Of a stretch of DNA of 64,000 nucleotides, positions 11,172 through 57,927 are shown in pieces. Origin of the DNA: a virus; the IMG/VR virus record IMGVR_UViG_3300033182_001068, positions 1 to 64,000 of that record; one strand, given 5' to 3'. The position numbers were made by a program, and so were the translations under genes. The notes under the pieces were generated by a model. That model was not told where the DNA came from, made no database searches, and saw nothing but the letters and a program-made list of their open reading frames with translations. Every line of letters starts with the position of its first letter. Position 1 is the first letter of the stretch.

Positions 11172-12746
11172 TCACACATTAAGAAGGACAGTTGCGTAGC
11201 CACCATTTGAGGTGTTGATTGAGGCAGCAATCGAGTCAGTGACGATCAAAACGCCGCCTCTTGCCCCTGTCGACCCTGTTGCGCCGGTGCCGCCCGCACC
11301 GCCAGTTCCTGCATTTCCAGCCGTACCGGGATTGCCTCGCGTGCCTGCAGAACCGCCAGCGCCCCCCGCACCGCCCGCAATTGCAGGGTAGTGAGTTGCG
11401 GAGTTGTGATTTCCGCCCGCAGTGGCATGGTTTTCTGTAGCGGCAGGGTTGTGGTCACCCGCAGTGTGGTGATGGTTCGTTGTGGCCGGGTTGTGACCAT
11501 CGACATAGTGGTGGTTGTGGTTCGGGTTGTAGTTCGGGTTGCAGTGATGGTTACCGGTCGGGTTGCCGCCACCAGTGTGCAGGTGATGGGCGTTGCTGCG
11601 ATATCCAGTGTTGTGGTAATACTGGAAGTAGCCGTCGTAGTGATAGTGGTGGTGAGAGTTGCTGCGCTGGTGATGCTGATAGGTGGGGTTTGTGTCCGCC
11701 TTGCAGTCGTGGTTTGCGACAGTCGCTCCACCGTGGGCTTGGGCATGGTTTTCTGTAGATGGGGTGTGTGACGACGTGTGATGATGGTTTTGTGTCGCTG
11801 CAGGGTTATGCCCGCTCACATAATGGTTGATCGGGTTCTGCGTGGCTGCGGTATGCGTTGCAGGGTAAGTGTGGCCTTGGTTTCCTGCATTTCCTGCGTT
11901 TCCGGGGTTGCCAAAAGAACCTGCGGTTCCGGGGTTGCCGTCTGCGCCGGTTGCGCCAGTGGTTCCGGCGTAACCGACCCGTCCGACTGACTCGATGATG
12001 GGGTTCACGACCCCGTTAGAGTTATCGAAAACGATGTTTTTAGCAACGACAAGAACAAGCCCGCCGCCTTCGCCGCCGTCACCACCAGTGCCAGTCGCCC
12101 CTTGGGCGCCTTGGTTTCCGGGGTTTCCGTCAGTTCCGGGATTTCCTGCGTTTCCGGGGTTGCCCGGATTGCCAGCCCCAGACATTCCCCACTCTCGATA
12201 AACGCCGACTTCGCCAGTGGCACCTGCCCCACCTGCACCGCCTGCTCCACCGGCACCGCCTGCCCCACCGGGGTTGCCGGGCGACCCGGCAACATCGGCA
12301 CCCACGGCGCCTTCCGCTCCACCTTCGACTCTCTTGAACCCGTCGGTGATGTCGTAGCGCCAACCACGCAAAGCAAAATTGAGGTCTTTTCGAACGTCTG
12401 CTGGGACTTGCGTACCTGACGAATCACCAATCACGTACGTCTTGGTGATGCCGGGAACGTTGTCATCGGCACGCCCGATGAGAGTTCCAAACGTGTTCAC
12501 GTTATCGACGCTCGACGGCATCCCTAGTTTTGAACCGGAATGCATTGTTAGCGTTTCAGCAACAAACACCCTGTAACCATTAGTAAAGAGGGTTGAGTTG
12601 GCGTTAATCGTAAGATTGTTGAAGTAGTAGTCGCGGTTCATGATGAAAGTGCCGCTAATAACGGTCGTCCCATCGGGCCCCAAACCGTAAACACTGTCGT
12701 TCCCCAGACGCTGGTCGGGTTTTACCTTGACTCGCCGAATACCCAT
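11172..12746 (-). CDS. tail fibre protein with collagen-like Gly-X-Y tracts and a His-rich core
   Basis: Runs such as GNPGNPGNAGNPGTDGNPGNQGAQGATG. The N-terminus is paralogous to 12746-13426. A His/Asn-rich block sits between collagen-like tracts. Confidence 0.75.
   Translation of the reverse strand: MGIRRVKVKPDQRLGNDSVYGLGPDGTTVISGTFIMNRDYYFNNLTINANSTLFTNGYRVFVAETLTMHSGSKLGMPSSVDNVNTFGTLIGRADDNVPGITKTYVIGDSSGTQVPADVRKDLNFALRGWRYDITDGFKRVEGGAEGAVGADVAGSPGNPGGAGGAGGAGGAGGAGATGEVGVYREWGMSGAGNPGNPGNAGNPGTDGNPGNQGAQGATGTGGDGGEGGGLVLVVAKNIVFDNSNGVVNPIIESVGRVGYAGTTGATGADGNPGTAGSFGNPGNAGNAGNQGHTYPATHTAATQNPINHYVSGHNPAATQNHHHTSSHTPSTENHAQAHGGATVANHDCKADTNPTYQHHQRSNSHHHYHYDGYFQYYHNTGYRSNAHHLHTGGGNPTGNHHCNPNYNPNHNHHYVDGHNPATTNHHHTAGDHNPAATENHATAGGNHNSATHYPAIAGGAGGAGGSAGTRGNPGTAGNAGTGGAGGTGATGSTGARGGVLIVTDSIAASINTSNGGYATVLLNV
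11382..11873 (-). repeat. His/Asn-rich low-complexity block (34 His in 164 aa by manual count)
   Basis: Contains repeated GHNPA(A/T)T(Q/N/E)NHH-type units and HxH/HHH clusters (NHHHTS, SHHHYHY, NHNHHY, NHHHTA). Confidence 0.8.
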
Positions 12747-13426
12747 CAGTCGACCTCTAGGTAAATAGCCGTACCCTCCGCAGCGCCGCCCTGACCATCC
12801 ACATTGAGAACCAGTCCGGCTGGAGCCACTGAAGGCGTGCTGACAAGCATCACAACACCGCCCCCAGCGTCGGTTCCGCCAGTTGCGGCGATTTGCGCTG
12901 TGCCGTCGATCGAAATGTACCGAGCGGCGACGATCACAACACCGCCACCGCTATCAGTGGTTGAACCCGCACCACCCTTGAGATATACAGGACCTCCGGA
13001 GGATGCTGTAATCTGATACCCAAGAATCGCCTGCGAGGGATACTGGTAGTACTGTGATCCGCCATTTGCTGCGGTTGGAGCCGTTGCGGTTTCCCCAGTA
13101 CCGGAGTTCCCACCCAAACTGTTCGTTACTGATGCGCCAGCAGCGCCACCGCCAGACACGGACCCTTCCCCAGAGAAACCTCCGGGCAAACCAACGACAG
13201 CATTGTTGTTGAGAACAAGGTTGTTCTTGACAAACAGCCGGTAACCGTTCGTGTTCAACGTTACGCCACTATCGATAGTGAGGTTGAGGTAGTACATGTC
13301 CGCAGACATGGTCGTGTTGGCAGTGATGGTTGCGTCCCCATCGACTCCCGTTCCGTAAATTTCATCTGCTGAATTTACGTACTCTTCAAGGGGATCTGGG
13401 GCGTTCAGCCTTACGATCCCCCCCAT
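12746..13426 (-). CDS. Gly-rich tail fibre protein (paralog of the 11172-12746 N-terminal domain)
   Basis: Shared pattern YYLNLTIDSGVTLNTNGYRLFV vs YYFNNLTINANSTLFTNGYRVFV. Gly/Ala/Ser-rich C-terminal part. 1-nt start/stop overlaps on both sides. Confidence 0.7.
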   Translation of the reverse strand: MGGIVRLNAPDPLEEYVNSADEIYGTGVDGDATITANTTMSADMYYLNLTIDSGVTLNTNGYRLFVKNNLVLNNNAVVGLPGGFSGEGSVSGGGAAGASVTNSLGGNSGTGETATAPTAANGGSQYYQYPSQAILGYQITASSGGPVYLKGGAGSTTDSGGGVVIVAARYISIDGTAQIAATGGTDAGGGVVMLVSTPSVAPAGLVLNVDGQGGAAEGTAIYLEVD

Positions 13427-13797
13427 TAGGAACCGTCCTCGACGACAGCGTTAACGGTCAGGTTAACCGAACTGGCAGCGCTGGCTCGCGCGTAAATCTG
13501 ATCGCCCGTTCCGCCGCTTTCTTCAAGTACAAGAGATAGGTTGATCATCGTTGTTTCGTTAGCCTGCATGGTCAAATCGTGAAAAACGATGTGCTGGTTT
13601 CCTGCAGTAGCGCCATAAGGAACAACCCACATCGTCACAGTTTTTACAGATGAAGTCAGGTTTGACAGAATGATCTGCTTGACAATGGCGGTTTCACCGG
13701 CAGGAACAACGTATGAAGAAGATCCGGGCAGAGTCGTGCTGTTGGCAGTCGTGCCCAAAGTAACAGGCCCGACAATTCTCTTCTGGTTAAAGGCCAT
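13426..13797 (-). CDS. hypothetical fibre-module protein (123 aa)
   Basis: ORF preceded by GAGAGGA and overlapping the next gene by 1 nt. No motif recognised. Confidence 0.6.
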   Translation of the reverse strand: MAFNQKRIVGPVTLGTTANSTTLPGSSSYVVPAGETAIVKQIILSNLTSSVKTVTMWVVPYGATAGNQHIVFHDLTMQANETTMINLSLVLEESGGTGDQIYARASAASSVNLTVNAVVEDGS

Positions 13798-13842: not shown

Positions 13843-14688
13843 TTAAGGGGTCCGAAACAGACGGAAAAGCCTGTCTCTGAACCTCTTTTTGGCTGGCTGT
13901 GAACCGTGAAATACGGGGCAAACTTCGTCCTGTTTCCGCTGTTGCATCCGGTACTTCCGGTTCCGATTCTCGTCGTAGCCGACAAACACTTCCCCCATGC
14001 CTCGTGGGAAAATCAACTCATGGACATTTTGATCACCGTAAATGACCTTGTAGTCAACCGTTCGAGGAAATGTGATGATATGGGCGATCTTGGTACCCAT
14101 CGGAATGACAAACTCGTCCTCGTCGGTAAAAATGTTCAGAACCCAGTTCATATGGTGATAAAAATCCGTATGAACAACACCCGGTACAAGACTCCATCGG
14201 CGGTCCTGCTCCCACAGAACCGGCAAAATCATTGAGGACCAGCCGGGCGCTGTCTTGATCTCCCAAGGGTTAAGGATCTTGATCCAGTTTCCAGTCTCTA
14301 CAGCGCGCCCATTTGTTGCAGGGATTGGGCCAGTCTGCTCGTACCCAAAACTTTCAACTCCCAAACCCTGAATCTCTTCTTGAGTGTCATACCTTGCCTC
14401 CCACCCGGTCGAAAACGCATTTTTTCGGATGCGTACGTCGCATGGGAGCCGTAGAGTCATGCCCGTGTTCAGGAAATCCTGTGTGCCTTGGCATCGTTTC
14501 AAGGTTTGCTGTTCAGCATTCAGTTTCTTGAACCAGTCGGGGAAATGCAGGAAGTTGTCAATCGGGTCGATTCTCTGGTCGTAAAGACGGTTAGTGAGTG
14601 GGGCAACGAGGATTTGGCCCGGCTGAATCTCCGGAATGTCCCCAAAAGTCTTGGCAGAAACAAGGTCTTCGCTTTTGCGTTCAGGCAT
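13843..14688 (-). CDS. cupin-like protein, paralog of 28071-28793
   Basis: By-eye alignment with 28071-28793: KRCQGTQDFLNTGMTLRLPCDVRI vs YKCLPLTEANVNGWELVLQQDVVI; NPWEIKTAPGW vs TGWSFSTPPGI; MNWVL...IPMGTKIAHIITF vs MNWKI...FPAGSPFMFFQF. It may belong to an uncharacterised phage/bacterial DUF family (unverified). Confidence 0.55.
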   Translation of the reverse strand: MPERKSEDLVSAKTFGDIPEIQPGQILVAPLTNRLYDQRIDPIDNFLHFPDWFKKLNAEQQTLKRCQGTQDFLNTGMTLRLPCDVRIRKNAFSTGWEARYDTQEEIQGLGVESFGYEQTGPIPATNGRAVETGNWIKILNPWEIKTAPGWSSMILPVLWEQDRRWSLVPGVVHTDFYHHMNWVLNIFTDEDEFVIPMGTKIAHIITFPRTVDYKVIYGDQNVHELIFPRGMGEVFVGYDENRNRKYRMQQRKQDEVCPVFHGSQPAKKRFRDRLFRLFRTP

Positions 14689-14706: not shown

Positions 14707-15420
14707 TCAGACTTTGGTAATAAGTGAAAGCCCCAAGGAGATAGGAATGTGGGAAACACGGACATCGTCTCGTGCCGCAAGGTCGGTAAACATCGGCCAG
14801 AAGTCGTGCGCTTCCCCGAGCCGAACGAGGTTGCCCTGATCGAGGGAAATGCCCAAGATGACTGTTCCGCCATCGGCACAGTTGTTGATAGCAGCCTCAA
14901 GCATCTCTGGGTTGGCGCTTGCGTCGGCAGCCTCAATGATCGAAATATCGAACTTTTGTGGGAACACTCCAGAACGAGCGTCGGCATGGGTTACAACGGT
15001 GTATTCCAAGTCATTTGGCAGCCCGAAGTGGCGTTCGACGTAATCGAGGTGAATGGAGTTCTCGACGAAAAGGTCGGCTTCGATGCCTGCTGTCATCATG
15101 AATTTCAAGACCGTGCTGTCCGAAAGGTACAACGATGCCGGTTTTGCGGCCCGAACAACACCTTCCACGATTGAGCAGTAAGCAGCAAAAGTGGTGTTGA
15201 AGTTGAACGACCCTGTCGCAATCAGGTCGTAGTTGACGATTTCGGTAGCAAATCCAATGGAGTTGCGATCTTGGGGTGCTCCGAGAGCGATTTCTTCTTG
15301 TTTGACTGCTTGACCAAACGATGTTCTGCGTTCGAGTGTGTAGTTCTCGCGGTGCGCGGTGTTCGAGATTGACTCGGTCATCGAAAACAACTGGGGCGCT
15401 GTCACGTCAATGCTGTCCAT
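14707..15420 (-). CDS. hypothetical protein, possible Rossmann/class-I methyltransferase-like fold
   Basis: YDLIATGSFNF...LYLSD...FDISIIEAAD...LEAAINNCADGGTVILGIS has the beta-strand/acidic-residue spacing of SAM-MTases, but no clean GxGxG. It shares an (A/I)(T/S)GSF motif with 22705-23478. Confidence 0.4.
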   Translation of the reverse strand: MDSIDVTAPQLFSMTESISNTAHRENYTLERRTSFGQAVKQEEIALGAPQDRNSIGFATEIVNYDLIATGSFNFNTTFAAYCSIVEGVVRAAKPASLYLSDSTVLKFMMTAGIEADLFVENSIHLDYVERHFGLPNDLEYTVVTHADARSGVFPQKFDISIIEAADASANPEMLEAAINNCADGGTVILGISLDQGNLVRLGEAHDFWPMFTDLAARDDVRVSHIPISLGLSLITKV

Positions 15421-15421
15421 T

Positions 15422-15700
15422 TCAGGCCATCCTTGCTTTCAAAACGTCCCTGTAATAACAGTGACGGCGAGCATCCTGCTTGGTGCGAGTAAAAACCCGG
15501 TACATCTGCCGCTGAGCAGTAGTTGTCAGAGTTGATTTATCGACAATGCCGTCAGGGTAGTAGTGCCCGGCAAGAAGCCCCATCAGTTCATCGACAGTGA
15601 TGTCAGCGGCGCGAGTTTCGTCTTCGCCACACAGCGCGATAAGGGATGCCACGGCAACAATCCGGTAGTCGTAATCATCTTGGATGTTGTATTGACCCAT
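15422..15700 (-). CDS. hypothetical protein (92 aa)
   Basis: Track ORF. Its ATG overlaps the upstream stop by 1 nt. Confidence 0.55.
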   Translation of the reverse strand: MGQYNIQDDYDYRIVAVASLIALCGEDETRAADITVDELMGLLAGHYYPDGIVDKSTLTTTAQRQMYRVFTRTKQDARRHCYYRDVLKARMA

Positions 15701-15837
15701 TACTCGGACTCTTCTTCCATATCGAAGGGAACGTTTTCGATGACGAAGCAGGAAACGATGTTGTCCTCGGCATCATCATCCCGAATGAATCGCTGGACAT
15801 CAGGGTCCCAGCCTTCAGGGACGTAAGTGTCACTCAT
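15700..15837 (-). CDS. small acidic protein (45 aa) ending ...DMEEESE
   Basis: Hand-translated: MSDTYVPEGWDPDVQRFIRDDDAEDNIVSCFVIENVPFDMEEESE. It fills the gap between two genes, and TAATG couples it to the next. Confidence 0.45.
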   Translation of the reverse strand: MSDTYVPEGWDPDVQRFIRDDDAEDNIVSCFVIENVPFDMEEESE

Positions 15838-15868
15838 CACTACCTCCTACACCTTACAGTTTACACCA

Positions 15869-16591
15869 TCAACTATTTTCAGAAGTGGCGTCAGACTCCT
15901 CAGATTCTTCCTTTTGGTCCGAGTAAAAGGGCGGCTCGATAGGCTCTTCGTGCTGGTTCTGGGTACAAACCATGAACGTACTGATCATCCACTTATCCTC
16001 CGACAGAGGCGTTTGCCCCATGTGAGGGTGCGTCCAAGAGGTCGGGAAAAGGGAAATTGAACCCGCTTTTGCCGGAACATGGAGGTCGTGCTCAGGAAAG
16101 TATGTGCTCCCCCCAACCTTTACATCGTTGAGGTAGATGACCGCACCCAGAACTCGCGGCCCGTACCCGGGGATTGGGTCCCATGCGGCTCCGTCAATGT
16201 GCGTCCTGTAAAACCCAACGTTTCGGAAATAACGCTGCAGCCTATATCCGGTGTCAGAAGGGTTTGGCCATTTCCAAAGTTCTTCATACTGCTGGATGTA
16301 GTGGCCAACTGCCGAGTACAAGCCGACACTGACCTCGTTCTCGTAAAACGCAAAATTGGATGAATCAACACCCCTGCTCTCAATGAACGAGCGAGAAAAG
16401 TTCATGTCGCTTGAGTTCTTCACCATCGGGTTTAGGCCCCCGAGGGTTACCCCGGGCTGAAAGAGCCGGTCAAAGTATCTGTTGCATTCGTCAACGAGCC
16501 CGCTCGCAACTTTTCTGGAAAACGCATTTTCAGCGACCATGATGTGTCGCTGCTTTCCTGCGGGGAACTTAAACGAAATGGTTTTAGACAC
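15869..16591 (-). CDS. 2OG-Fe(II) oxygenase (prolyl-4-hydroxylase-like)
   Basis: YRTHIDG (HxD), VIYLNDVKVGGSTYFP and WTHPHMG (distal His). Acidic Ser/Glu-rich C-terminal tail. Confidence 0.75.
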   Translation of the reverse strand: MSKTISFKFPAGKQRHIMVAENAFSRKVASGLVDECNRYFDRLFQPGVTLGGLNPMVKNSSDMNFSRSFIESRGVDSSNFAFYENEVSVGLYSAVGHYIQQYEELWKWPNPSDTGYRLQRYFRNVGFYRTHIDGAAWDPIPGYGPRVLGAVIYLNDVKVGGSTYFPEHDLHVPAKAGSISLFPTSWTHPHMGQTPLSEDKWMISTFMVCTQNQHEEPIEPPFYSDQKEESEESDATSENS

Positions 16592-18065
16592 CCGATAGTC
16601 CTTTCATGAGTGCATCTTTATGAGGTATGAAGTTTCCTGCCTTGTTCTGCTGGACGATGGTTCCAATTTCTTGTTGCAAAAACGTTTTTGTCCCACGCAA
16701 AGCAATGTTTTGTTCGCAGCCGTCAAATGCTACGAGGCCTTGCCCTTGCGCCACGTGCCAAAAATGAAACACCCGGAACAGTTCGTATCCGGCGACCGGC
16801 ACATCATGCTCCTCCAGCCCACGAATCGACATAATGTCCATAAGATGGTTAAGGAGATCAGGGCGTGGACGGTGCTTTTGCTCCAACCACATATCTGTGT
16901 CTTCCCTGTCTGACACATAATGCATTGCGATCATTGCCAGCAAGTTTCCCATCATCGAATCAATGATACGCAGATACTCGCTTCTCAGTTTGTCTTTGCG
17001 AGGCGAGTACACGGGCAAGTAACTCGTCAAAAGCATCGACTGGTTAATGCTTGCCGCAATCGATGTGGCCTCCAAAGGTTCTACAAACCCTGATGACAGC
17101 CCGATCGCAACGCAGTTCTTGACCCAACTGTTTTTCAGGTAGCCGGGCTCAAAGCGGATAAACCGATGTTCATCCCCAATTGTGTGCCCAGCCTGTTGTT
17201 CTGCTTCCTTCAGGGCGTCTTCGTCAGAAATGTGAGACGACGAGAAGACGTACCCGTTGCCCCTTCTGCTTTGTGTCGGGATTTCCCACATCCACCCTGC
17301 CGACATTGCCTGCGCCAAGGTGTAAGGCTTGATTCCGTCAACGGGATCTTCTGGGGTTGGGAACACGACAGCGCTGTCGGTTGGCAGATAGTCCGAATAG
17401 GAACACCAGTTCGGTTTTTCCAACTTGGAAATGACAGCCTTTCTAAAACCGGAAGCATCGACGACGAAATCGGTTTCGATAAGCCTCCCATCTTCAAGCA
17501 TTAGGGTTTCAATATCGCCGGTCTCTGGGGAGACACCAATGTCGATAACCTCGCCTTCAGTGAACATCACATTTGCGTCACTGCACTCAAGTCGCAGAAA
17601 GTCGTTGAGTTTGTGGGTATCGAAATGGAACTGATTTGTCTGCCCCAGAATGTCGTCGCCTTTGTCTGCAACAAGATTTCTTGTGAGCGAGGGAAGCCCA
17701 AACGCTGGGGTCAGTTGCCGCCCGTCGATATGAGCGGCGTTGTAAGTGCCGATAAACGTCGAGTGGACGGACTGTCCTCCGCTGATGCTGTGAAAGTAGT
17801 CGGGAGTATGGTTGGTCCAGTCTCTGAAGCGAATACCAAATTTGAAAGTCGCTTCCGTCGCTTCAACCATTTTTGTTCGATTGATGTTGGCGAGTTTCTC
17901 GAATGTTGACCAATGCTCTGTTGATCCTTCGCCAACTCCAACAATGCCGATTGAATCGGAAGAAATAACCTCAACATCAAGGTTGACAAAAATACGCTTC
18001 ATGATCAACGCGTTAATTAGCCCGGCTGTGCCAGAGCCAACGACAGTAAGTTTTTTTACAGTCAT
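16584..18065 (-). CDS. flavin-dependent (tryptophan-type) halogenase
   Basis: N-terminal VVGSGTAGL (GxGxxG), GVGEGS, ATFKFGIRFRDW (conserved Lys) and the hallmark WxWxIP motif as WMWEIP. At 493 aa the size is typical. Confidence 0.8.
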   Translation of the reverse strand: MTVKKLTVVGSGTAGLINALIMKRIFVNLDVEVISSDSIGIVGVGEGSTEHWSTFEKLANINRTKMVEATEATFKFGIRFRDWTNHTPDYFHSISGGQSVHSTFIGTYNAAHIDGRQLTPAFGLPSLTRNLVADKGDDILGQTNQFHFDTHKLNDFLRLECSDANVMFTEGEVIDIGVSPETGDIETLMLEDGRLIETDFVVDASGFRKAVISKLEKPNWCSYSDYLPTDSAVVFPTPEDPVDGIKPYTLAQAMSAGWMWEIPTQSRRGNGYVFSSSHISDEDALKEAEQQAGHTIGDEHRFIRFEPGYLKNSWVKNCVAIGLSSGFVEPLEATSIAASINQSMLLTSYLPVYSPRKDKLRSEYLRIIDSMMGNLLAMIAMHYVSDREDTDMWLEQKHRPRPDLLNHLMDIMSIRGLEEHDVPVAGYELFRVFHFWHVAQGQGLVAFDGCEQNIALRGTKTFLQQEIGTIVQQNKAGNFIPHKDALMKGLSGV

Positions 18066-18068
18066 GAT

Positions 18069-18647
18069 TTACCGATACTGTCGTTTGAGCAGAATGTTGC
18101 TTTCTTCCGTGTAGATGGAGTGGGCAAAGGGGAATCCGCCGGGAGCGAACATGATGTCCCCTTGATTTAATTTGACTGTCAAATCGAGAGACGGGAACTC
18201 GATGTGCATTGGGCTGGGAGAAAGCGAAGCGATTTCGACGACTATTCCTTCTTCCAGATGATTGGAGAGAACAACAGATCTGCCCTGCTCGCCGTGCTTA
18301 GAAAACCTGAGAAGGTCATAGATCATCGACCCGTAATCACCAATGTCGACAGAATTGAAATAGTCCTTTGACAGTTCAAGCCCGGTATCAGAGATTGATG
18401 TGATGCGCTCTCGAAGAAAATCAAGAAACTCGTCTTTTACGTCAGTGGTGAGGGCGAAGAGAGAAGCGCTTTCTGATTTGCAATGGTCGTCCGCCCCAGC
18501 AGCAACAGTCGTAAATGTCACGAAAGACCAGTCACTAGAAGCCCCACGTTCAAGAATCGGAAGGAATTCGTCATCGACGCAAAAGGAGTGTTCGTAGACG
18601 TAGACATTGTCGTGATGTTCGGTAGGAAACATGGTCACCCCAACCAA
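18069..18647 (-). CDS. divergent double-stranded beta-helix (2OG oxygenase-like) protein with an HxE variant
   Basis: SNHLEEGIVVEIASLS...PMHIEFP...GDIMFAPGGFPFAHS parallels the HxD...GG..F.P...G....F....H layout of its neighbours. Confidence 0.5.
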   Translation of the reverse strand: MVGVTMFPTEHHDNVYVYEHSFCVDDEFLPILERGASSDWSFVTFTTVAAGADDHCKSESASLFALTTDVKDEFLDFLRERITSISDTGLELSKDYFNSVDIGDYGSMIYDLLRFSKHGEQGRSVVLSNHLEEGIVVEIASLSPSPMHIEFPSLDLTVKLNQGDIMFAPGGFPFAHSIYTEESNILLKRQYR

Positions 18648-19204
18648 CTGACGAGAGAGTACTTAACGCCGGATACGACAGGCATCGACGCATGACCGAA
18701 AGGGTAGGAGGAGGGGAACACCACAATGTTCCCGGCCTTAGCGGCGACTGACACTTTCCGCTGAGGGAATACAAGATCCCCACCTGTTTCAACGTCGTTG
18801 AGCATCAAAACGACACTGACGCTTCGTGATTCGAGCGGAGACCAGTCGAAGTGCGTAACGTATTCCGCTCCCTCCAAGTACCGGTTAACGGCCCACCCGT
18901 TGTCGAACCGAAGCGGGATCTGGTGCGATTCCTTGTACTTGTTGACAACGTCATCTACTTGCAAGTGCAGTTCTTTGAAAGCCAGAGTGACCGGATGGCT
19001 TGCGTAGCCGTCTGCGATCAGGACAGCGTTCAGATCGAACGAGTAGTTCGACCGTTTGTCCGTGATTTGCCCGGTGCCAACGGTGGCCCGTTTCCAGTGT
19101 GACGGGAAGTCTGGGATCTGCGCCCAATCTTCGAGGAGTTTCAGGAACGGCAAGTAGTCGTAGTCGAGCGTTTCTGTATGGATGAAACTGTCCATAGGTT
19201 TCAT
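18635..19204 (-). CDS. 2OG-Fe(II) oxygenase (prolyl-4-hydroxylase-like)
   Basis: YVTHFDW (HxD), VVLMLNDVETGGDLVFP, AGNIVVFPSSYPFGHAS...GVKYSLVSW. Confidence 0.75.
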   Translation of the reverse strand: MKPMDSFIHTETLDYDYLPFLKLLEDWAQIPDFPSHWKRATVGTGQITDKRSNYSFDLNAVLIADGYASHPVTLAFKELHLQVDDVVNKYKESHQIPLRFDNGWAVNRYLEGAEYVTHFDWSPLESRSVSVVLMLNDVETGGDLVFPQRKVSVAAKAGNIVVFPSSYPFGHASMPVVSGVKYSLVSWLG

Positions 19205-19656
19205 GCCCGAACCTCAAATTCGAATGTCGCCACAGTTCCGCTGTCGTCGAAGAGAGACCCGGTGTGGGCTCCGATGACTGTGGGGCGAATCTTGAACCTC
19301 ACCGACTTTTTGTCGACGCTTACATCGGAATCGAGGGAGGTTTTGTTGCCGAAGGAATCTTCGACCTCTGCGCTGATGGCATCCACTGGATCAAAGTCGT
19401 CGGCGTACTCGATCTTCACGATTTTCCCCAACTGGAGAAATTGTGGGTGGACTCGTAGGCTTTGAACCGTTGGGACGTCCAGCACTTGGACAGAATCCCT
19501 GTCAAATGTCAGGTCTTCGGTTTTGCTGTTGTCGCCTACAATGATGGGCAAGCCGTTTTCGTTGGCAAGGGCGGATGCTTCATCCAAACGATCATCGCTA
19601 GGGCAATAAATAACTCGCTCCACGTCACTCCGACTCTTCTTCTTCCGGAGGAGCAA
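19201..19656 (-). CDS. hypothetical protein (about 140-151 aa)
   Basis: Track ORF. An alternative GTG start at 19623 lies 2 nt after the upstream small-ORF stop. No motif recognised. Confidence 0.5.
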   Translation of the reverse strand: MLLRKKKSRSDVERVIYCPSDDRLDEASALANENGLPIIVGDNSKTEDLTFDRDSVQVLDVPTVQSLRVHPQFLQLGKIVKIEYADDFDPVDAISAEVEDSFGNKTSLDSDVSVDKKSVRFKIRPTVIGAHTGSLFDDSGTVATFEFEVRA

Positions 19657-19783: not shown

Positions 19784-20743
19784 CTACCCTGTCGTGGCTT
19801 CCTGTTTGGGAATCTCGGCAAGTCGAGGCGATGGGGCTTCGGGGACGCCGAACTCGTGCAGCCAGTACCCCTGAAATGTTCGCTGGCCTGCAGAGTACCC
19901 TGCTCGAACACTATGAGCCATTCGGAACAGGTCGACGATCATTAGGTCGCCTTCGTCCCAAAGGTACCACTCTTGACGTTCTTCGTTTTCGCAGATTTCC
20001 CACCTGACCTTGTCCATCAGTTCTGCGAATGTGTGGCGATGCGAGTCTGTGGCGGGTTGTCCGTCGAAAAGCAGGAGATGTTCTTGCAGTCCGTACATGT
20101 TGTGACATGGGCATGTGCGCAAAGTTGGTTTTTTTGTCGCCGGATGGGGAGACACGGCTGGTCTGCTGTGCGAGGCCACGTAGCCGTCGCCGTCTTTGCT
20201 GTAGATGACTTTTGACCCGGACCGAACATCAGCGCTGAATTGTTCGGACATTTCGGGGGATGGGGGGATGGTCCAGTTGCAGAAGTGGATGATCTCCGCC
20301 CTGTTAAAGAAATCCTGCTCGTCCTCGTCAAGGTCGGCGTACAACTGGCACATGTCAACGAAACCAGTTGAGCCTGTTCCCTTTGGGGCCTTGAAGTTAA
20401 ACATGTTCCATGCGCCGCCGTACTGCGGATACTTCATAGAAACGCCCTCAAGGTGCCATTCAATTAGGGCGGCATCGGCTTCGTTTCGCCCTTCTGACGT
20501 TACGTCATTGATTCGTTTGTCGTGGTCTTGGAGGTATGGCCAAGCCATCGTCTGCTGATCTTGGGTCGTATGAGTCCATCCAAGGTGCGGTGATAGTGCC
20601 GAGCAAATCTGGGCGATATCACTTTCCTCGGCCTTGATCTCCTTGAAGACAACTGCTCCGTTGGATTTATATGACTCGACGTACGGCTGAGGGTTGTTTG
20701 CAACATCGTTCGGCCTGACGCCGACGAAACAAGAAATGGTCAT
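19784..20743 (-). CDS. TauD/TfdA-family 2OG-dependent dioxygenase-like protein
   Basis: EWHLEG (HxE in the WHxD position), GSTGFVDMCQLYADL and WDEGDLMIVDLFRMAHS (W..GD...DN....H pattern). Confidence 0.65.
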   Translation of the reverse strand: MTISCFVGVRPNDVANNPQPYVESYKSNGAVVFKEIKAEESDIAQICSALSPHLGWTHTTQDQQTMAWPYLQDHDKRINDVTSEGRNEADAALIEWHLEGVSMKYPQYGGAWNMFNFKAPKGTGSTGFVDMCQLYADLDEDEQDFFNRAEIIHFCNWTIPPSPEMSEQFSADVRSGSKVIYSKDGDGYVASHSRPAVSPHPATKKPTLRTCPCHNMYGLQEHLLLFDGQPATDSHRHTFAELMDKVRWEICENEERQEWYLWDEGDLMIVDLFRMAHSVRAGYSAGQRTFQGYWLHEFGVPEAPSPRLAEIPKQEATTG

Positions 20744-21387
20744 TTCTCTTCAGACAGGAAGTACTCAATAGCCCCACGAATCCGCCTCAAGGCTTCTTTC
20801 GGGTCATAATCGTCATAACCGGTTTCGAAGTTCGCAGGAAGCAGTGAACCATTGGTGAATCGAACGCGCCGCTTTCCGTCGCGCGAAACAACCCACTTTT
20901 CGAAGTTTCCACGGATTGGCCCGTCCAGCACTCCGAGACGCTGATAAAGAGGGTGTGGATATTGGTCGGGTTCGTCTTCGTAATTCAATCGCGATGCCAC
21001 AAGTTCAGTAAAATCCATACGAACTCGATAGTTGTAGAAGGCATACTTGTGGCACTCTTCGGCAGTGGACTTGGAGTCTTTGAAATCCCCATACCCGTAC
21101 TCGCAGTAGTCATTAGTGGGGACGCAAATGATCTTGAATCCCTGATCGGCGTAGTCGTACTCAAGAACTTGCAGCATCGGGTACTGCATCGAGTTGCCGC
21201 ATTCTCCCGTCACGTTGACAATCATTGTCACCTCGCCGTGACGATCTGCCAGCAGGTTCGAGGTAGATCCGTCTACCGATTTGATGGCAATGTCGTAGAC
21301 ACTTTCGCCGTCTGCGGTCGGCCCAAAATGATGCTCTTTTTCGAGGATTTCGAGCATTGATGTGGTTTCGTTTGCAGTGATTGACAT
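20740..21387 (-). CDS. glutathione-peroxidase-family (thioredoxin-fold) protein
   Basis: IVNVTGECGNS (NVASxCG-like, Cys), FKIICVPTNDY (FPCNQF region) and GNFEKWVVSRDGK (WNFxKFL.). I prefer the ATG at 21387 over the track TTG at 21417. Confidence 0.7.
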   Translation of the reverse strand: MSITANETTSMLEILEKEHHFGPTADGESVYDIAIKSVDGSTSNLLADRHGEVTMIVNVTGECGNSMQYPMLQVLEYDYADQGFKIICVPTNDYCEYGYGDFKDSKSTAEECHKYAFYNYRVRMDFTELVASRLNYEDEPDQYPHPLYQRLGVLDGPIRGNFEKWVVSRDGKRRVRFTNGSLLPANFETGYDDYDPKEALRRIRGAIEYFLSEEK

Positions 21388-21393
21388 GACCCG

Positions 21394-21402
21394 ATGATAC
21401 CA
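21394..21402 (-). promoter_or_regulatory. extended -10-like box TGGTATCAT, 6 nt upstream of the ATG at 21387 (possible leaderless transcript)
   Basis: Minus strand reads CGTGGTATCATCGGGTCATG. No SD fits between the box and the ATG. Confidence 0.35.
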
Positions 21403-21421
21403 CGACCCCCTTATCAAAACG

Positions 21422-21430
21422 TGATATCAT
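21422..21430 (+). promoter_or_regulatory. extended -10-like box TGATATCAT for the plus-strand operon
   Basis: gTGATATCAT lies about 39 nt upstream of the ATG at 21469. GGAGAG SD at 21456-21461. It mirrors the divergent box at 21394-21402. Confidence 0.35.
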
Positions 21431-21468
21431 CTATAGCAAGCAGCAGATCATCGTCCGGAGAGAAAATC

Positions 21469-21702
21469 ATGGTAGCACTTAACAGAATTTCCGCTGACGC
21501 TAAACGGCAGCACCTTGCCAACATCCTGAAAGAGCACGAAAAACTGATACTCGCAGATGCCCTGCGTGCGGGAGAAGACCCCGACGCCATCGACCCCGCG
21601 ACCCATCCGTCACCCGATGACTGTGAGGGCGTGCTGCAAATCTCACTCGCAACCCGTGTTGTTGCTTACAACAGCCTGAAGGCATCACTGGAGAGCATCT
21701 GA
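21469..21702 (+). CDS. small helical protein (77 aa), family member A
   Basis: ATG preceded by GGAGAG. First gene of the plus operon. Loosely similar in layout to the next two ORFs. Confidence 0.5.
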   Translation: MVALNRISADAKRQHLANILKEHEKLILADALRAGEDPDAIDPATHPSPDDCEGVLQISLATRVVAYNSLKASLESI

Positions 21703-21703
21703 C

Positions 21704-21922
21704 ATGGACTACACTCTGAGTAACGCTGAAAAAATCGAAGCATGTGAGATCGCTCTCGCTGCTATCGAAGAAGATGTCCTGATTGCGTGCCTCGGGCTGG
21801 GAATTGATGCTGCGGACGTTCCGGACGACTACACCTCCGACGACCCAAGTCATGGAGAACTGGTCGATTCGCTCGGTCGCCTCAACGCTGCCAAGGCATA
21901 CATGGCGGGCTTGTCAGCCTGA
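21704..21922 (+). CDS. small helical protein (72 aa), family member B
   Basis: LSNAEKIEACEIALAAIEEDVLIACLGLGIDAADVPDD aligns with 10861-11145. Confidence 0.55.
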   Translation: MDYTLSNAEKIEACEIALAAIEEDVLIACLGLGIDAADVPDDYTSDDPSHGELVDSLGRLNAAKAYMAGLSA

Positions 21923-21937
21923 TAACGAGGAGAAAAA

Positions 21938-22150
21938 ATGGCACTGCCGGAAGCCATCGTCAACCAAGCAAAAGAAGAGGCTCGGGATTTCCTTGAGTAC
22001 TCGATTTATGTTCTCTGCACGTTCCTCGAAGTAGATATCGAGACAGTGACTTCCGCAATCGAAATCCCGGTCGCTGAAGGCGACCCGGACTACTACAACT
22101 ATGTGTCACTCAAGCGTCAGTTGTCAGCATTCGAGGCCTTGACGTCATGA
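21938..22150 (+). CDS. small helical protein (70 aa), family member C
   Basis: GAGGAG SD upstream. AKEEARDFLEYSIYVLCTFLEVDIETV aligns with ETNIYSMSAALGLDVDS of 10861-11145. Confidence 0.55.
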   Translation: MALPEAIVNQAKEEARDFLEYSIYVLCTFLEVDIETVTSAIEIPVAEGDPDYYNYVSLKRQLSAFEALTS

Positions 22151-22377
22151 AGTTTTCGTCACCTCATCTACGTGCTGTAGTTGACGGAGATGACCGTCAC
22201 CCACGAGAAATTGCTGCTGCGTCAGGCAAATCGCTTCCCGAAGAGGACCCCAGCGAAACGACGCCGTTCGACGATCGCATGGAAAAGACAATTGTGTTCA
22301 ACCCCGCTGTTGGGGCCCTTGAGTTTACCGAAGAAGGTGCCGTCCTTCTTTGTGAGAAGATCAAAGAAGACACCTGA
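22147..22377 (+). CDS. hypothetical acidic protein (76 aa)
   Basis: ATGA overlap with the upstream gene. No motif recognised. Confidence 0.5.
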   Translation: MKFSSPHLRAVVDGDDRHPREIAAASGKSLPEEDPSETTPFDDRMEKTIVFNPAVGALEFTEEGAVLLCEKIKEDT

Positions 22378-22712
22378 TGGCCATTAGGAAGACGAGCCCA
22401 ACATCCGGAAAAGTTTATAGCCCTCAAGCCGAACTTGACTGGGTAAACACCCACCTGCTGTCATCGTTTTTTATTCTCGGCCTTACCGAAGCGGACATGG
22501 AGACCTACACGATCGACGAACTTATCGATCGTTGCGAGTGGATGTTCGAACCACACCCCACGTTGCCGCTCGTGATGGTGGGCGAGAAGCAACGATCGTC
22601 TAACTCCGGCTTCGCTTTCGGCAGAAAACAGAAAAGTTGGATGATGCTGCTGGTCCGCAGATTCTGGCGTCGACGCCAAATCTCGTCATTTGAGGTATCC
22701 CGGAATGTCTAG
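22377..22712 (+). CDS. hypothetical protein (111 aa)
   Basis: 1-nt overlap with the upstream stop. The C-terminal 30 aa are Arg/Trp-rich and may not all be genuine. Confidence 0.45.
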   Translation: MAIRKTSPTSGKVYSPQAELDWVNTHLLSSFFILGLTEADMETYTIDELIDRCEWMFEPHPTLPLVMVGEKQRSSNSGFAFGRKQKSWMMLLVRRFWRRRQISSFEVSRNV

Positions 22713-23478: not shown

Positions 23479-23488
23479 TATGTAAACC

Positions 23489-29494: not shown

Positions 29495-29498
29495 GTTG

Positions 29499-57920: not shown

Positions 57921-57927
57921 GGCTTCT

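What the first reader, a model, noticed from the sequence alone, without database searches (positions are those of the whole stretch)
16584..18065. Phage-encoded flavin-dependent halogenase embedded among oxygenases
The 493-aa ORF has all the hallmarks I can check by eye: GSGTAGL (FAD GxGxxG), GVGEGS, the conserved Lys in ATFKFGIRFRDW, and the diagnostic WxWxIP motif as WMWEIP.

Viral FDHs are rare. The characterised example I know is VirX1, a cyanophage enzyme that prefers iodination.

Here the gene overlaps its neighbours at both ends (16584-16591 and 18065-18069), so it lies in an operon with DSBH oxygenases. No obvious flavin reductase is adjacent. The only candidate redox partner is the NAD(P)-Rossmann protein at 25133-25711. 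The substrate is unknown and could be a free indole or phenol, a peptide, or a virion protein.
Basis: partly seen in the sequence, partly recalled or inferred. Interest (0 to 1): 0.65.

Follow-up and report, generated by a model that had tools for sequence, protein, structure and literature searches.

The report
Phage halogenase in a tail-fibre cassette
The gene is a genuine, probably active flavin-dependent halogenase of a kind known in phages since 2005, but here and in many uncultivated relatives it always travels with a small set of partner genes and an unusual glycine- and histidine-rich tail-fibre gene set, which suggests a testable natural role for viral halogenases.

Summary
The 493-aa ORF at 16584-18065 (-) is real. 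It is a full-length Trp-halogenase-family flavin-dependent halogenase (FDH): Pfam E 1e-98, AF2 pLDDT 93, Foldseek TM 0.83-0.90 to solved FDHs. The catalytic Lys (K75) and Glu (E332), GxGxxG and WxWxIP are kept in all 119 homologues examined.

Phage FDHs set among dioxygenases are not rare or new. The tblastn search found 70 deposited phage records. prnA was noted in cyanomyoviruses in 2005, Syn9-type arrays were described in 2010, and VirX1 lies in such an array.

This enzyme is not VirX1-like. It belongs to a large uncharacterised viral clade sister to the Synechococcus phage S-H38 FDH. It lacks the tryptophan-binding lid and carries A333/S335 where PrnA has S347/G349.

The Rossmann protein is a poor reductase candidate. 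It is of the beta-hydroxyacid-dehydrogenase type, is fused to a dioxygenase in relatives, and is absent from most FDH loci.

New here: across 33 FDH lineages the gene sits in a cassette of three fibre-like genes (one collagen-like and His-rich), a 2OG oxygenase, the FDH and a dUTPase-fold protein with a conserved Cys. One phage carries two diverged copies of the whole cassette. I favour a fibre-linked role, but the substrate is unproven.

The parts
16584..18065 (-). Flavin-dependent halogenase (FDH), 493 aa. K75, E332, G10xG12xxG15 and W258xW260xIP263 are present.
15869..16591 (-). 2OG-Fe(II) oxygenase (P4H-like, HID motif), 240 aa. It overlaps the 3' end of the FDH gene by 8 nt. It is a recurrent cassette member ('2OG240').
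18069..18647 (-). Degenerate DSBH paralogue of the 189-aa oxygenase, with the HxD stretch deleted. It ends 3 nt before the FDH start.
18635..19204 (-). 2OG-Fe(II) oxygenase (HFD motif), 189 aa. It is the core cassette partner upstream of the FDH ('2OG189'; replaced by the 2OG233 family in many relatives).
19201..19656 (-). 151-aa protein of unknown function. It is a frequent cassette member between the fibre genes and the oxygenase.
13843..14688 (-). 281-aa dUTPase-fold protein (PHROG 7084) with invariant Cys66 and His178. It is a constant partner of the FDH and a homologue of the Syn10 gene that abuts VirX1.
14707..15420 (-). 237-aa conserved unknown protein with invariant H124, D126 and H205. 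It directly precedes the FDH in type-B relatives.
15422..15700 (-). 92-aa conserved unknown protein.
15700..15840 (-). 46-aa conserved acidic small ORF (PEGWDP...CFV), found only in window-type (type-A) cassettes.
13426..13797 (-). 123-aa protein, first gene of the fibre trio.
12746..13426 (-). 226-aa Gly-rich fibre-like protein. It shares its N-terminal domain with the 524-aa protein.
11172..12746 (-). 524-aa fibre-like protein with collagen-like GXY runs (GNPGNPGNAGNPG...) and a His-rich domain (34 His in residues 291-470).
19784..21417 (-). TauD-family dioxygenase (19784-20743) and glutathione-peroxidase-like protein (20740-21417). They belong to the lineage-specific expansion of the island.
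21394..24487 (+). Opposite-strand block: five conserved small ORFs (21394-22712), a 262-aa paralogue of the 237-aa protein (22690-23478) and a 332-aa 2OG oxygenase (23489-24487).
24465..25711 (-). 222-aa 2OG oxygenase (24465-25133) and a Rossmann NAD(P)-binding protein (25133-25711/25744). The two are fused into one protein in relatives L010/L011.
25680..30128 (-). Further dioxygenases: a 301-aa 2OG oxygenase, a 556-aa TauD-like protein, a DUF6065 protein (28071-about 28790; a second dUTPase-fold relative), and 233-aa and 209-aa 2OG oxygenases.

Best explanation
Shown. The ORF encodes a complete FDH of the tryptophan-halogenase (variant A, free-standing) type.

Inferred from the family's established mechanism. 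FADH2 comes from a host flavin reductase, since none is encoded in the window. It reacts with O2 and halide to give hypohalous acid at the flavin. WxWxIP keeps the substrate away from the flavin. K75, with E332, delivers the electrophilic halogen to an electron-rich aromatic ring about 10 A away. The tryptophan-binding helical lid of PrnA/Thal is deleted, so the pocket should be open, as in BrvH and VirX1. The enzyme should therefore not be a dedicated free-L-tryptophan halogenase.

Inferred from gene context, and less certain. The enzyme works as part of a conserved seven-gene cassette: 123-aa, 226-aa and about 520-aa Gly/His-rich collagen-like fibre proteins; a 151-aa protein; a P4H-like 2OG oxygenase; the FDH; and a dUTPase-fold Cys protein. 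I favour the view that the oxygenase(s), the FDH and the dUTPase-fold protein mature or modify the cassette's own fibre proteins, by hydroxylation and halogenation of side chains. I favour this over the view that they make a free metabolite. The window's extra dioxygenases, the Rossmann protein and the peroxidase are a lineage-specific expansion.
For: Enzyme identity.
- Pfam E 1e-98.
- Best solved relatives are BrvH and Xcc4156, E about 1e-55.
- The AF2 model has pLDDT 93.2. Its top Foldseek hits, as listed, are all FDHs, with TM 0.83-0.90.
- K75, E332, WxWxIP and GxGxxG are conserved in 119/119 homologues.
- PrnA residues E450, F454 and W455 fall in a deletion. The literature links lid loss to an open pocket in VirX1.

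Cassette.
- All 24 loci fetched through the FDH share the core genes.
- In 80 IMG/VR loci fetched through the dUTPase-fold protein, 78 carry an FDH, and in 64 of those it is less than 100 nt away.
- Per FDH cluster at 70% identity (n=33): dUTPase-fold protein 33/33, long fibre 33/33, 226-aa fibre 32/33, a 2OG oxygenase within 1.5 kb 32/33.
- Reverse test through the fibre gene, in 41 loci with at least 6 kb on both sides: 41/41 have the dUTPase-fold protein and a 2OG oxygenase, and 38/41 have the FDH.
- Linkage survives rearrangement: the fibre genes lie downstream in type A, upstream in type B and inverted in L087/88.
- L105 holds two complete, diverged cassettes, with the FDH copies 47% identical.

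The same logic appears elsewhere.
- VirX1 is followed by a PHROG 7084 homologue and preceded by proteins with 22-35% Gly.
- The S-SRM01 FDH lies between genes annotated as tail fibre and adhesin tip.
- The fibre has Pro in the Y position of GXY repeats, and the oxygenases belong to the prolyl-4-hydroxylase-type family PF13640.
Against: - No biochemical data exist for any member of this clade, and I know of no report of a halogenated phage structural protein.
- The fibre family has no conserved tryptophan. Only Tyr and His are conserved, whereas the nearest characterised enzymes act on indoles.
- Conserved order within one phage lineage can reflect common descent rather than joint function.
- In P-SSM2, Syn1, S-RIM44 and HTVC008M the FDH is not next to fibre genes and has no dUTPase-fold neighbour.
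- Three informative fibre loci (one lineage) lack the FDH, so it is dispensable for this fibre type.
- The third FDH signature motif, Fx.Px.SxG, is not strictly met: the window has FVEPLEATS.
- The Ser next to the catalytic Glu (S347 in PrnA, conserved in Trp halogenases) is Ala here.
Confidence: 0.5

Rival explanations
1. Auxiliary metabolic or secondary-metabolite pathway. The FDH and the many dioxygenases successively halogenate and hydroxylate a free amino-acid-derived small molecule or short peptide in the infected cell, as Iyer et al. proposed for the Syn9 array. Proximity to the fibre genes is only genome architecture.
For: - This is the published interpretation of cyanophage arrays.
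- The nearest characterised enzymes, BrvH and Xcc4156, brominate free indole, and VirX1 takes many small aromatics.
- TauD-family enzymes and a beta-hydroxyacid-dehydrogenase-type Rossmann protein fused to a dioxygenase suggest small-molecule chemistry.
- In P-SSM2, Syn1 and S-RIM44 the FDH sits among metabolic genes such as talC, gnd and petE.
Against: - The small-molecule-type enzymes (TauD, Rossmann, peroxidase) are absent from most FDH cassettes (3-5 of 80).
- What is constant is the fibre trio, one or two P4H-like oxygenases and the dUTPase-fold protein.
- Duplication of the whole fibre-plus-enzyme unit in one genome is hard to explain for a metabolic pathway.
- No peptide synthetase, carrier protein or exporter was found in the ORFs scanned.
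Confidence: 0.3
2. RiPP-like system. The FDH and oxygenases modify one of the small conserved ORFs of the island, for example the 46-aa acidic peptide at 15700-15840 with a conserved Trp, or the five small + strand ORFs at 21394-22712.
For: - The 46-aa ORF lies just downstream of the FDH/oxygenase pair. It is conserved in type-A relatives with an aromatic residue in a P-x-G-W-D context.
- Peptide-modifying FDHs exist. MibH is among the PDB hits as 5uao, and ChlH is described in the abstract listed.
Against: - The small ORFs are missing from type-B cassettes, which are the majority of FDH loci: small46 is in 7 of 80.
- The Trp is replaced by Tyr in L008.
- No leader-peptide recognition element or dedicated peptidase was identified.
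Confidence: 0.08
3. The protein no longer halogenates. It would be a flavoprotein retained for another role (structural, chaperone-like or monooxygenase), as was once suggested for 'transient, non-functional' prnA in P-SSM2.
For: - An early paper regarded phage prnA as probably non-functional.
- The S347A and G349S changes sit beside the catalytic Glu and the halide site, and the Fx.Px.SxG motif is not strictly met.
Against: - The catalytic and cofactor residues are invariant across 119 homologues that have diverged to 43% identity. This indicates purifying selection on catalysis.
- WxWxIP, which suppresses monooxygenase chemistry, is intact.
- The AF2 model is confident and matches FDH structures.
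- BrvH is active and also has Ser at the PrnA G349 position.
Confidence: 0.07

Closest known systems
Syn9/Syn10-type cyanophage dioxygenase-halogenase arrays (Iyer et al. 2010, PMC2938197), the home locus of VirX1
   Same: Both have many non-identical tandem 2OG-Fe(II) dioxygenases, Trp-halogenase-type FDH(s) and a dUTPase-fold protein with a conserved Cys. The window's 281-aa protein is homologous to Syn10 CPUG_00130, which abuts VirX1. Gly-rich proteins lie just upstream in Syn10 as well.
   Different: The host genome here is not a T4-like Kyanoviridae phage. Its sheath, terminase and baseplate proteins are nearest to actinophage myoviruses at 23-40% identity. There is one FDH rather than two, and it belongs to a different FDH clade. 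No JmjC/MINA-type member was detected. The fibre genes share no detectable sequence similarity with the Syn10 genes.
VirX1 (cyanophage Syn10, PDB 6QGM), the only characterised viral FDH
   Same: Both are phage-encoded variant-A FDHs with K79 and Glu equivalents. Both lack the helical lid. Both sit next to a PHROG 7084 protein.
   Different: They are only 22% identical and score 120 bits. VirX1 is in a separate clade with 100/100 support. VirX1 keeps the S-T-G after the catalytic Glu, where the window has A-T-S. Halide preference cannot be read from the sequence.
BrvH (6FRL) and Xcc4156 (6Y1W), bacterial indole-brominating FDHs with unknown native substrates
   Same: These are the best sequence and fold matches: E about 1e-55 and TM 0.83-0.87. 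They lack a Trp-binding lid and have a non-Gly residue at the PrnA G349 position.
   Different: Identity is about 32%. They fall outside the phage clade (0/100 bootstraps join them). They keep the Ser after the catalytic Glu. Per Iyer et al., proteobacterial Trp-halogenase homologues occur in TonB-receptor/SapC/JmjC neighbourhoods; I did not check the BrvH or Xcc4156 loci.
Kyanoviridae 'prnA' genes (S-H38, P-SSM2, HTVC008M, Syn1)
   Same: They belong to the same phage FDH superclade (97-98/100). They share the GEGS and E-A-T-S signatures. They commonly have dioxygenase neighbours.
   Different: Identity is 30-38%. No dUTPase-fold partner or homologous fibre trio lies within 6-8 kb in the six loci checked.
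Bacterial operons pairing 2OG dioxygenases with collagen-like or tail-collar proteins (Iyer et al. 2010); prolyl/lysyl hydroxylation of collagen-like proteins in giant viruses (from my own knowledge)
   Same: P4H-type oxygenases are co-encoded with Gly-X-Y proteins that are proposed or known to be their substrates.
   Different: Those systems contain no halogenase. Here the link is by gene context only.

Membership tests
Flavin-dependent halogenase, Trp-halogenase family (PF04820) | N-terminal GxGxxG dinucleotide (FAD) motif | tested here: met
   G10-S-G12-T-A-G15. The Gly positions are conserved across the homologues aligned.
Flavin-dependent halogenase, Trp-halogenase family (PF04820) | WxWxIP motif | tested here: met
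   W258-M-W260-E-I-P263. W258 and P263 are in 119/119 homologues; W260 is in 107/119 and the rest have Phe.
Flavin-dependent halogenase, Trp-halogenase family (PF04820) | Catalytic Lys (PrnA K79) and Glu (PrnA E346) | tested here: met
   K75 and E332 align with K79 and E346 of a PrnA sequence verified against PDB 2APG. Both are in 119/119 homologues.
Flavin-dependent halogenase, Trp-halogenase family (PF04820) | Fx.Px.SxG motif used for FDH genome mining | tested here: not met
   The window has F327-V-E-P330-L-E-A333-T-S335, so Ser is replaced by Ala and Gly by Ser. This holds across the clade (A in 119/119) and in S-H38, HTVC008M and Syn1. The motif is a mining heuristic; active BrvH also lacks its Gly.
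Flavin-dependent halogenase, Trp-halogenase family (PF04820) | Two-domain FDH fold | tested here: met
   AF2 pLDDT 93.2 and pTM 0.92. The top 50 Foldseek PDB hits listed are all FDHs, with TM 0.82-0.90.
Flavin-dependent halogenase, Trp-halogenase family (PF04820) | Halide- and FADH2-dependent halogenating activity | not testable with these tools
   This needs an enzyme assay.
Free L-tryptophan halogenases (PrnA/RebH/Thal type) | Helical lid and Trp-binding residues (PrnA Y443, Y444, E450, F454, W455) | tested here: not met
   E450, F454 and W455 fall in a deletion, and Y443 is replaced by Gly. This is so in the window and in all 119 homologues.
VirX1-like viral FDHs | Clade membership with VirX1 | tested here: not met
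   VirX1 and Syn10_132 form their own clade (100/100). The window clade groups with S-H38, HTVC008M and Syn1 (98/100). The tree is NJ only.
Variant B (carrier-protein-dependent) FDHs | Adjacent carrier protein or NRPS/PKS genes | tested here: not met
   No PP-binding, NRPS or PKS family was found in any ORF scanned. All the best hits are variant-A enzymes.
Syn9-type phage dioxygenase-halogenase array (Iyer et al. 2010) | Tandem, non-identical 2OG-Fe(II) dioxygenases | tested here: met
   There are nine with an intact HxD/E motif plus one degenerate copy, from PF13640 and TauD families.
Syn9-type phage dioxygenase-halogenase array (Iyer et al. 2010) | dUTPase-fold protein with a conserved cysteine | tested here: met
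   The 281-aa protein has invariant C66. Three of 13 family members hit Pfam dUTPase, best E 7.6e-10. It is homologous to Syn10 CPUG_00130 (hhalign 97.5%, E 5e-12).
Syn9-type phage dioxygenase-halogenase array (Iyer et al. 2010) | JmjC/MINA-type dioxygenase member | tested here: inconclusive
   No JmjC or Cupin_4 hit was found. The 237-aa unknown protein has an H-x-D...H pattern but no significant similarity to Syn10 gp49-like or to any Pfam/PDB entry.
FDH plus dedicated flavin reductase pair (RebH/RebF type) | Co-encoded flavin reductase | tested here: not met
   No Flavin_Reduct, FMN_red or Fre-type family is in the window. The Rossmann protein matches MTH1747/beta-hydroxyacid-dehydrogenase-type domains and is fused to a dioxygenase in relatives.

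The most novel reading that the evidence does not exclude
Viral FDHs of this clade, and by context perhaps VirX1 too, may be tail-fibre maturation enzymes. Together with a P4H-like dioxygenase and a dUTPase-fold Cys/His protein, they would hydroxylate and halogenate, or halogen-crosslink, Gly/His/Tyr-rich collagen-like fibre proteins. That would tune virion stability, metal binding or host recognition. It would be the first enzymatic protein halogenation in a virus particle and would give a natural role for phage 'prnA' genes, which has been open since 2005.
Probability: 0.25. Interest if true: 0.85.

Novelty: new member of a known kind. Interest (0 to 1): 0.45.

Why it matters
Phage 'tryptophan halogenase' genes have been known for twenty years, and one (VirX1) is a prized iodinating biocatalyst. 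No natural substrate or biological role is known for any of them.

This analysis does not find a new kind of enzyme. It does three smaller things.
- It defines a large, uncharacterised viral FDH clade outside the T4-like cyanophages. That clade would be missed by strict motif-based mining.
- It identifies a constant partner, the dUTPase-fold Cys protein, which also sits next to VirX1.
- It shows that the enzyme set is inherited, rearranged and even duplicated together with a peculiar collagen-like, histidine-rich fibre gene set.

That turns 'function unknown' into a concrete experiment: look for halogen and hydroxyl mass shifts on fibre proteins. It also offers new lid-less FDH scaffolds for biocatalysis.

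Tried and rejected
1. A single-sequence AlphaFold run of the Rossmann protein failed (pLDDT 36). It was replaced by a profile search against PDB sequences.
2. Megablast of 12-30 kb against deposited phages found no match. An exact-sequence contig look-up of the FDH found nothing on record.
3. The promoter/terminator scan of 11.1-31 kb gave nothing above shuffled expectation, so operon structure rests on spacing only.
4. tblastn of the 281-aa protein against deposited phages found only weak haloarchaeal virus hits. A profile was needed to link it to Syn10.
5. The 237-aa and 226-aa families gave no significant PDB, Pfam or hhalign match.
6. I looked for a conserved tryptophan in the fibre as a halogenation site. 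A 'GW' motif seen in 7 close relatives does not hold across 107 fibres, so I rejected it.
7. I asked whether the FDH correlates with histidine-rich fibres. FDH-less cassettes do have low-His fibres (2-3% against a median of 7.6%), but they come from one lineage, so this is only suggestive.
8. I looked for 2OG-dependent halogenases (HxG/A) among the island's dioxygenases. All that keep the motif have HxD or HxE by inspection, so I rejected this.
9. The GTDB genome scan found no close cellular relative; the best was 31% in a Legionellaceae MAG. The scan is pattern-based and finds close relatives only.
10. No tRNA genes are in the window. The host could not be inferred.
Full report
**Observation.**
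The window holds an ATG-initiated ORF at 16584..18065 on the minus strand that encodes 493 aa.

The stop of this gene overlaps the GTG start of the next gene by 8 nt (16584-16591). At the other end there is no overlap. The upstream ORF stops with TAA at 18071-18069, and three bases (ATC) separate it from the FDH start. The same 3-nt spacer and 8-nt overlap recur in relatives.

**The window is a phage.**
PHROG and Pfam searches identify a tail sheath (51418-52917), baseplate wedge/J (41348-42583), tape measure (46038-50096), tail fibres (31027-34425 and 11172-12746), two peptidoglycan-binding lysis proteins, ThyX, Rad52, RuvC, a PD-(D/E)XK nuclease and a terminase.

The sheath, terminase and baseplate proteins are closest to Gordonia, Arthrobacter and Brevibacterium myoviruses, at only 23-40% identity. 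There is no nucleotide match to any deposited phage. The phage is therefore not a T4-like cyanophage, and its host is unknown. The window's own protein cluster is listed on a 137-kb contig, and a related IMG/VR genome fragment is 156 kb.

**The enzyme.**
- Pfam Trp_halogenase matches residues 5-446 with E 1.1e-98. PHROG 2928 'tryptophan halogenase' gives 1.3e-98.
- Against PDB sequences the best matches are BrvH (6FRL, 4.6e-56) and Xcc4156 (6Y1W, 1e-55). The tryptophan halogenases follow at 1e-52 to 1e-40. VirX1 reaches only 9e-34.
- I verified a PrnA reference sequence as identical to PDB 2APG. I recovered VirX1 as Syn10 CPUG_00131.
- In a MAFFT alignment with 119 metagenomic homologues, window K75 aligns with PrnA K79 and E332 with E346, and both are invariant. 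W258, P263, E329 and H92 are also invariant, and the GxGxxG glycines are conserved.
- An AlphaFold2 model built on 64 sequences is confident (pLDDT 93.2, pTM 0.92). Its top 50 Foldseek matches in the PDB are all FDHs, with TM 0.82-0.90.

The catalytic pair is intact, and the nearest relatives are halogenases.

**What kind of FDH.**
Three features set it apart from classical tryptophan halogenases.
- The residues that clamp free tryptophan in PrnA (E450, F454, W455) lie in a deletion, and Y443 is Gly. This holds in the window and in all 119 homologues. The literature attributes the broad scope and iodinating ability of VirX1 to loss of this helical lid.
- The Ser that follows the catalytic Glu (PrnA S347, Thal S359) is conserved in Trp halogenases. 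Here it is Ala in 119/119 homologues. PrnA G349 is Ser in 113/119. The mining motif Fx.Px.SxG is therefore not strictly met.
- The GEGS and E-A-T-S signatures are shared with the FDHs of phages S-H38, HTVC008M and Syn1, but not with bacterial enzymes or VirX1.

A neighbour-joining tree with 100 bootstraps gives the following.
- The window falls in a metagenomic clade (99).
- That clade is sister to the S-H38 enzyme (97).
- Both lie inside a phage clade that includes HTVC008M and Syn1 (98).
- VirX1 and its tandem paralogue form a separate clade (100).
- BrvH and Xcc4156 lie outside.
This is a distance tree on a limited reference set. A full maximum-likelihood analysis is still needed.

**How common.**
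tblastn finds homologues in 70 deposited phage records, mostly cyanomyoviruses and a pelagiphage, all below 38% identity.

The literature has recorded prnA in cyanomyoviruses since 2005 and lists it as a conserved cyanophage gene. It counts 20 of 153 cyanophage genomes with one. Iyer et al. [quoted passage not shown] VirX1 remains the only characterised viral FDH that I found.

The finding as stated is therefore a new member of a known kind.

**The island in the window.**
Between the large fibre gene (31027-34425) and the fibre-like genes at 11172-13797 lie the following.
- Nine dioxygenases with an intact HxD/E motif: PF13640 at 15869, 18635, 23489, 24465, 25680, 28793 and 29499, and TauD family at 19784 and 26500.
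- One degenerate DSBH (18069).
- A DUF6065 protein (28071).
- A glutathione-peroxidase-like protein (20740).
- A Rossmann protein (25133).
- Several conserved unknown proteins.

The protein just upstream of the FDH (18069-18647) is a paralogue of the adjacent 189-aa oxygenase (hhalign 99.7%, E 1e-25). The HxD stretch is deleted and the 2OG-binding basic residue is lost, so it is probably catalytically dead.

**The proposed redox partner.**
A profile of the Rossmann protein matches MTH1747 (1I36, E 1.5e-12). Weaker matches are to beta-hydroxyacid, 6-phosphogluconate and prephenate dehydrogenases and imine reductases. It does not match any flavin reductase family.

In L010 and L011 it is fused in frame to the homologue of the neighbouring 222-aa dioxygenase. 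It occurs in only 3 of 80 FDH-bearing cassettes. It therefore belongs with that dioxygenase, not with the FDH.

No flavin reductase family was detected in the roughly 50 ORFs scanned. As with VirX1 and most FDHs, reduced flavin presumably comes from the host.

**The conserved cassette.**
The closest FDH homologues (44-73% identity) come from metagenomes and IMG/VR viral contigs. No close relative was found in GTDB representative genomes, though that scan is pattern-based. One homologue labelled 'Bacteroidetes MAG' lies on a contig with the same phage genes.

All loci fetched through the FDH share its neighbours.

The 281-aa protein (13843-14688, PHROG 7084) has an invariant Cys66 and His178. 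Three of 13 family members hit Pfam dUTPase, best E 7.6e-10. The family is homologous to Syn10 CPUG_00130, the gene that overlaps the 3' end of the VirX1 gene (HMM E 3e-15; PHROG 7084 E 2e-71; hhalign 97.5%). It is thus the dUTPase-fold protein of Iyer et al.

A profile scan of IMG/VR with this protein found 292 viral stretches. Of the best 80 loci, 78 carry an FDH; the two exceptions have the gene at a contig edge. In 64 of the 78 the FDH lies within 100 nt.

After dereplication there are 62 distinct FDHs, forming 33 clusters at 70% identity. Per cluster:
- the dUTPase-fold protein is present in 33/33;
- the long fibre protein in 33/33;
- the 226-aa fibre protein in 32/33;
- a 2OG oxygenase within 1.5 kb in 32/33.

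The reverse test used a scan seeded on the 226-aa fibre protein, so neither enzyme was used for selection. It gave 194 stretches. Among the 41 loci with at least 6 kb on both sides, all 41 have the dUTPase-fold protein and a 2OG oxygenase, and 38 have the FDH.

Gene order differs between lineages. The fibre trio is downstream of the enzymes in the window type, upstream in the more common compact type, and inverted in L087/L088. The genes nevertheless stay together.

One 100-kb viral contig (L105, and also L101) carries two complete seven-gene cassettes in the same order. The copies have diverged: FDH 47%, fibres 36-57%, oxygenase 33%, dUTPase-fold protein 34%.

The minimal unit is: 123-aa protein; 226-aa protein; roughly 520-aa fibre; 151-aa protein; 2OG oxygenase; FDH; dUTPase-fold protein; and often a second oxygenase. 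The window carries an expanded version with extra dioxygenases, the Rossmann protein and the peroxidase.

**The fibre proteins.**
The 524-aa protein has collagen-like Gly-X-Y runs with Pro in the Y position (Pfam Collagen E 1e-5). It also has a striking domain with 34 His, 23 Asn and 12 Tyr in 180 residues. That domain is conserved in relatives and reaches 75 His in L012.

Across 98 distinct long fibres from FDH-bearing loci the median His content is 7.6%. No tryptophan is conserved. A Tyr-Tyr pair and about eight His columns are.

The only FDH-less cassettes found come from one lineage. They have low-His fibres and two or three copies of the dUTPase-fold protein. This is suggestive but amounts to a single event.

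**Comparison with deposited phages.**
- In Syn10 the FDH pair is preceded by three proteins with 22-35% Gly and followed by the PHROG 7084 gene and then the dioxygenases.
- In S-SRM01 the FDH lies between genes annotated as tail fibre and gp37-gp38 adhesin tip.
- In S-H38 a tail fibre gene lies 6.5 kb upstream.
- In P-SSM2, Syn1 and S-RIM44 the FDH sits among metabolic genes. In HTVC008M it lies between the terminase genes. None of the six Kyanoviridae loci other than Syn10 has a PHROG 7084 relative within 6-8 kb.
The fibre link is therefore strong in the window's lineage, present in some cyanophages, and not universal.

**Interpretation.**
The identity and probable activity of the enzyme are well supported; I put that part at about 0.85. 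The mechanism is that of the family: host-supplied FADH2, O2 and halide give HOX, and a Lys/Glu-directed electrophilic substitution follows on an aromatic ring in an open pocket.

The biological role is inferred from context only. I favour a role tied to the fibre cassette, namely modification or maturation of the fibre proteins together with the P4H-like oxygenase and the dUTPase-fold protein. The reasons are that these genes are inherited, shuffled and duplicated as a unit, while the small-molecule-type enzymes of the window are dispensable.

The main rival is the published view that such arrays build a halogenated, hydroxylated metabolite. It is favoured by the substrate range of the nearest characterised enzymes and by the non-fibre contexts in several cyanophages.

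Against the fibre model stand the absence of a conserved Trp in the fibres and the fact that no halogenated phage protein has ever been reported, to my knowledge. Overall confidence in the combined statement is about 0.5.

**Verdict.**
The finding is real and correctly identified as an FDH, but it is neither rare nor new in kind. It is a new member of the known phage dioxygenase-halogenase arrays, in a new phage lineage and a new FDH subclade.

The added value of this follow-up is twofold. The FDH is constantly coupled to the dUTPase-fold protein, which is also VirX1's neighbour. It is also coupled to a collagen-like, histidine-rich fibre gene set. Together these give a direct experimental handle on the unknown natural function of viral halogenases.

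Noticed in passing
window 11172-12746 (-): The fibre-like protein combines collagen-like GXY runs with a domain that is 19% His (34 His, 23 Asn and 12 Tyr in 180 residues). The His-rich domain is conserved in relatives, up to 75 His in L012, and suggests metal binding.
   Followed up: partly
window 18069-18647 (-): This is a tandem paralogue of the 189-aa 2OG oxygenase that has lost the HxD iron ligands and the 2OG-binding residue. It is kept directly upstream of the FDH, 3 nt away, in type-A relatives, so it may be a pseudo-enzyme or adaptor.
   Followed up: partly
L010 531-1727 and L011 700-1986; window 24465-25744: The Rossmann NAD(P)-binding protein and the adjacent 222-aa 2OG oxygenase are separate genes with a 1-nt overlap in the window. 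In a related lineage they are fused into one 398-aa protein.
   Followed up: partly
L105 4546-10774 and 13997-20691 (also L101): One 100-kb viral contig carries two complete, diverged copies of the seven-gene fibre/oxygenase/FDH/dUTPase-fold cassette.
   Followed up: yes
L173, L184-L188: This is a variant cassette without an FDH: a 123-aa protein, a 450-aa low-His fibre, a 220-aa fibre, two 2OG oxygenases and two or three copies of the dUTPase-fold protein.
   Followed up: partly
window 21394-22712 (+): Five small ORFs (102, 72, 70, 76 and 111 aa) lie on the opposite strand and are conserved in order in the closest relatives. They are acidic and their function is unknown.
   Followed up: no
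window 15700-15840 (-): A 46-aa acidic ORF with conserved PEGWDP and CFV motifs lies between the 240-aa oxygenase and the 92-aa gene. It is present only in window-type cassettes.
   Followed up: partly
window 14707-15420 (-) and 22690-23478 (+): These are two paralogous unknown proteins (237 and 262 aa). The 237-aa family has invariant H124, D126 and H205, reminiscent of a metal-binding HxD...H triad. It has no detectable similarity to any Pfam or PDB entry.
   Followed up: partly
window 28071-29213 (-): The ORF is listed as 380 aa, but the DUF6065 match covers residues 145-345 and relatives are 216-240 aa. The true start is probably near 28790. It is weakly related to the dUTPase-fold family (PHROG 7084, E 3e-4).
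   Followed up: no
L190 (Synechococcus phage S-SRM01) 8007-9464: In this deposited freshwater cyanophage the FDH gene lies directly between genes annotated 'putative tail fiber' and 'gp37-gp38 adhesin tip complex'.
   Followed up: no
window 55569-58331 (-): A ParB_N-like protein, a PAPS-reductase-like protein (PHROG 2302, E 1e-71) and a ThyX with a 150-aa N-terminal extension lie in a row, followed by a dCMP deaminase. This may be a nucleotide or DNA-modification module.
   Followed up: no
L014 (phage S-H38) 6398-7030 and 9440-9931: The genes flanking the S-H38 halogenase are annotated 'DNA endonuclease V'. In the window, 2OG oxygenases also hit the PHROGs named 'DNA endonuclease (V)' (phrog_274 and 2297). 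That annotation may therefore be a mislabel of 2OG oxygenases.
   Followed up: no
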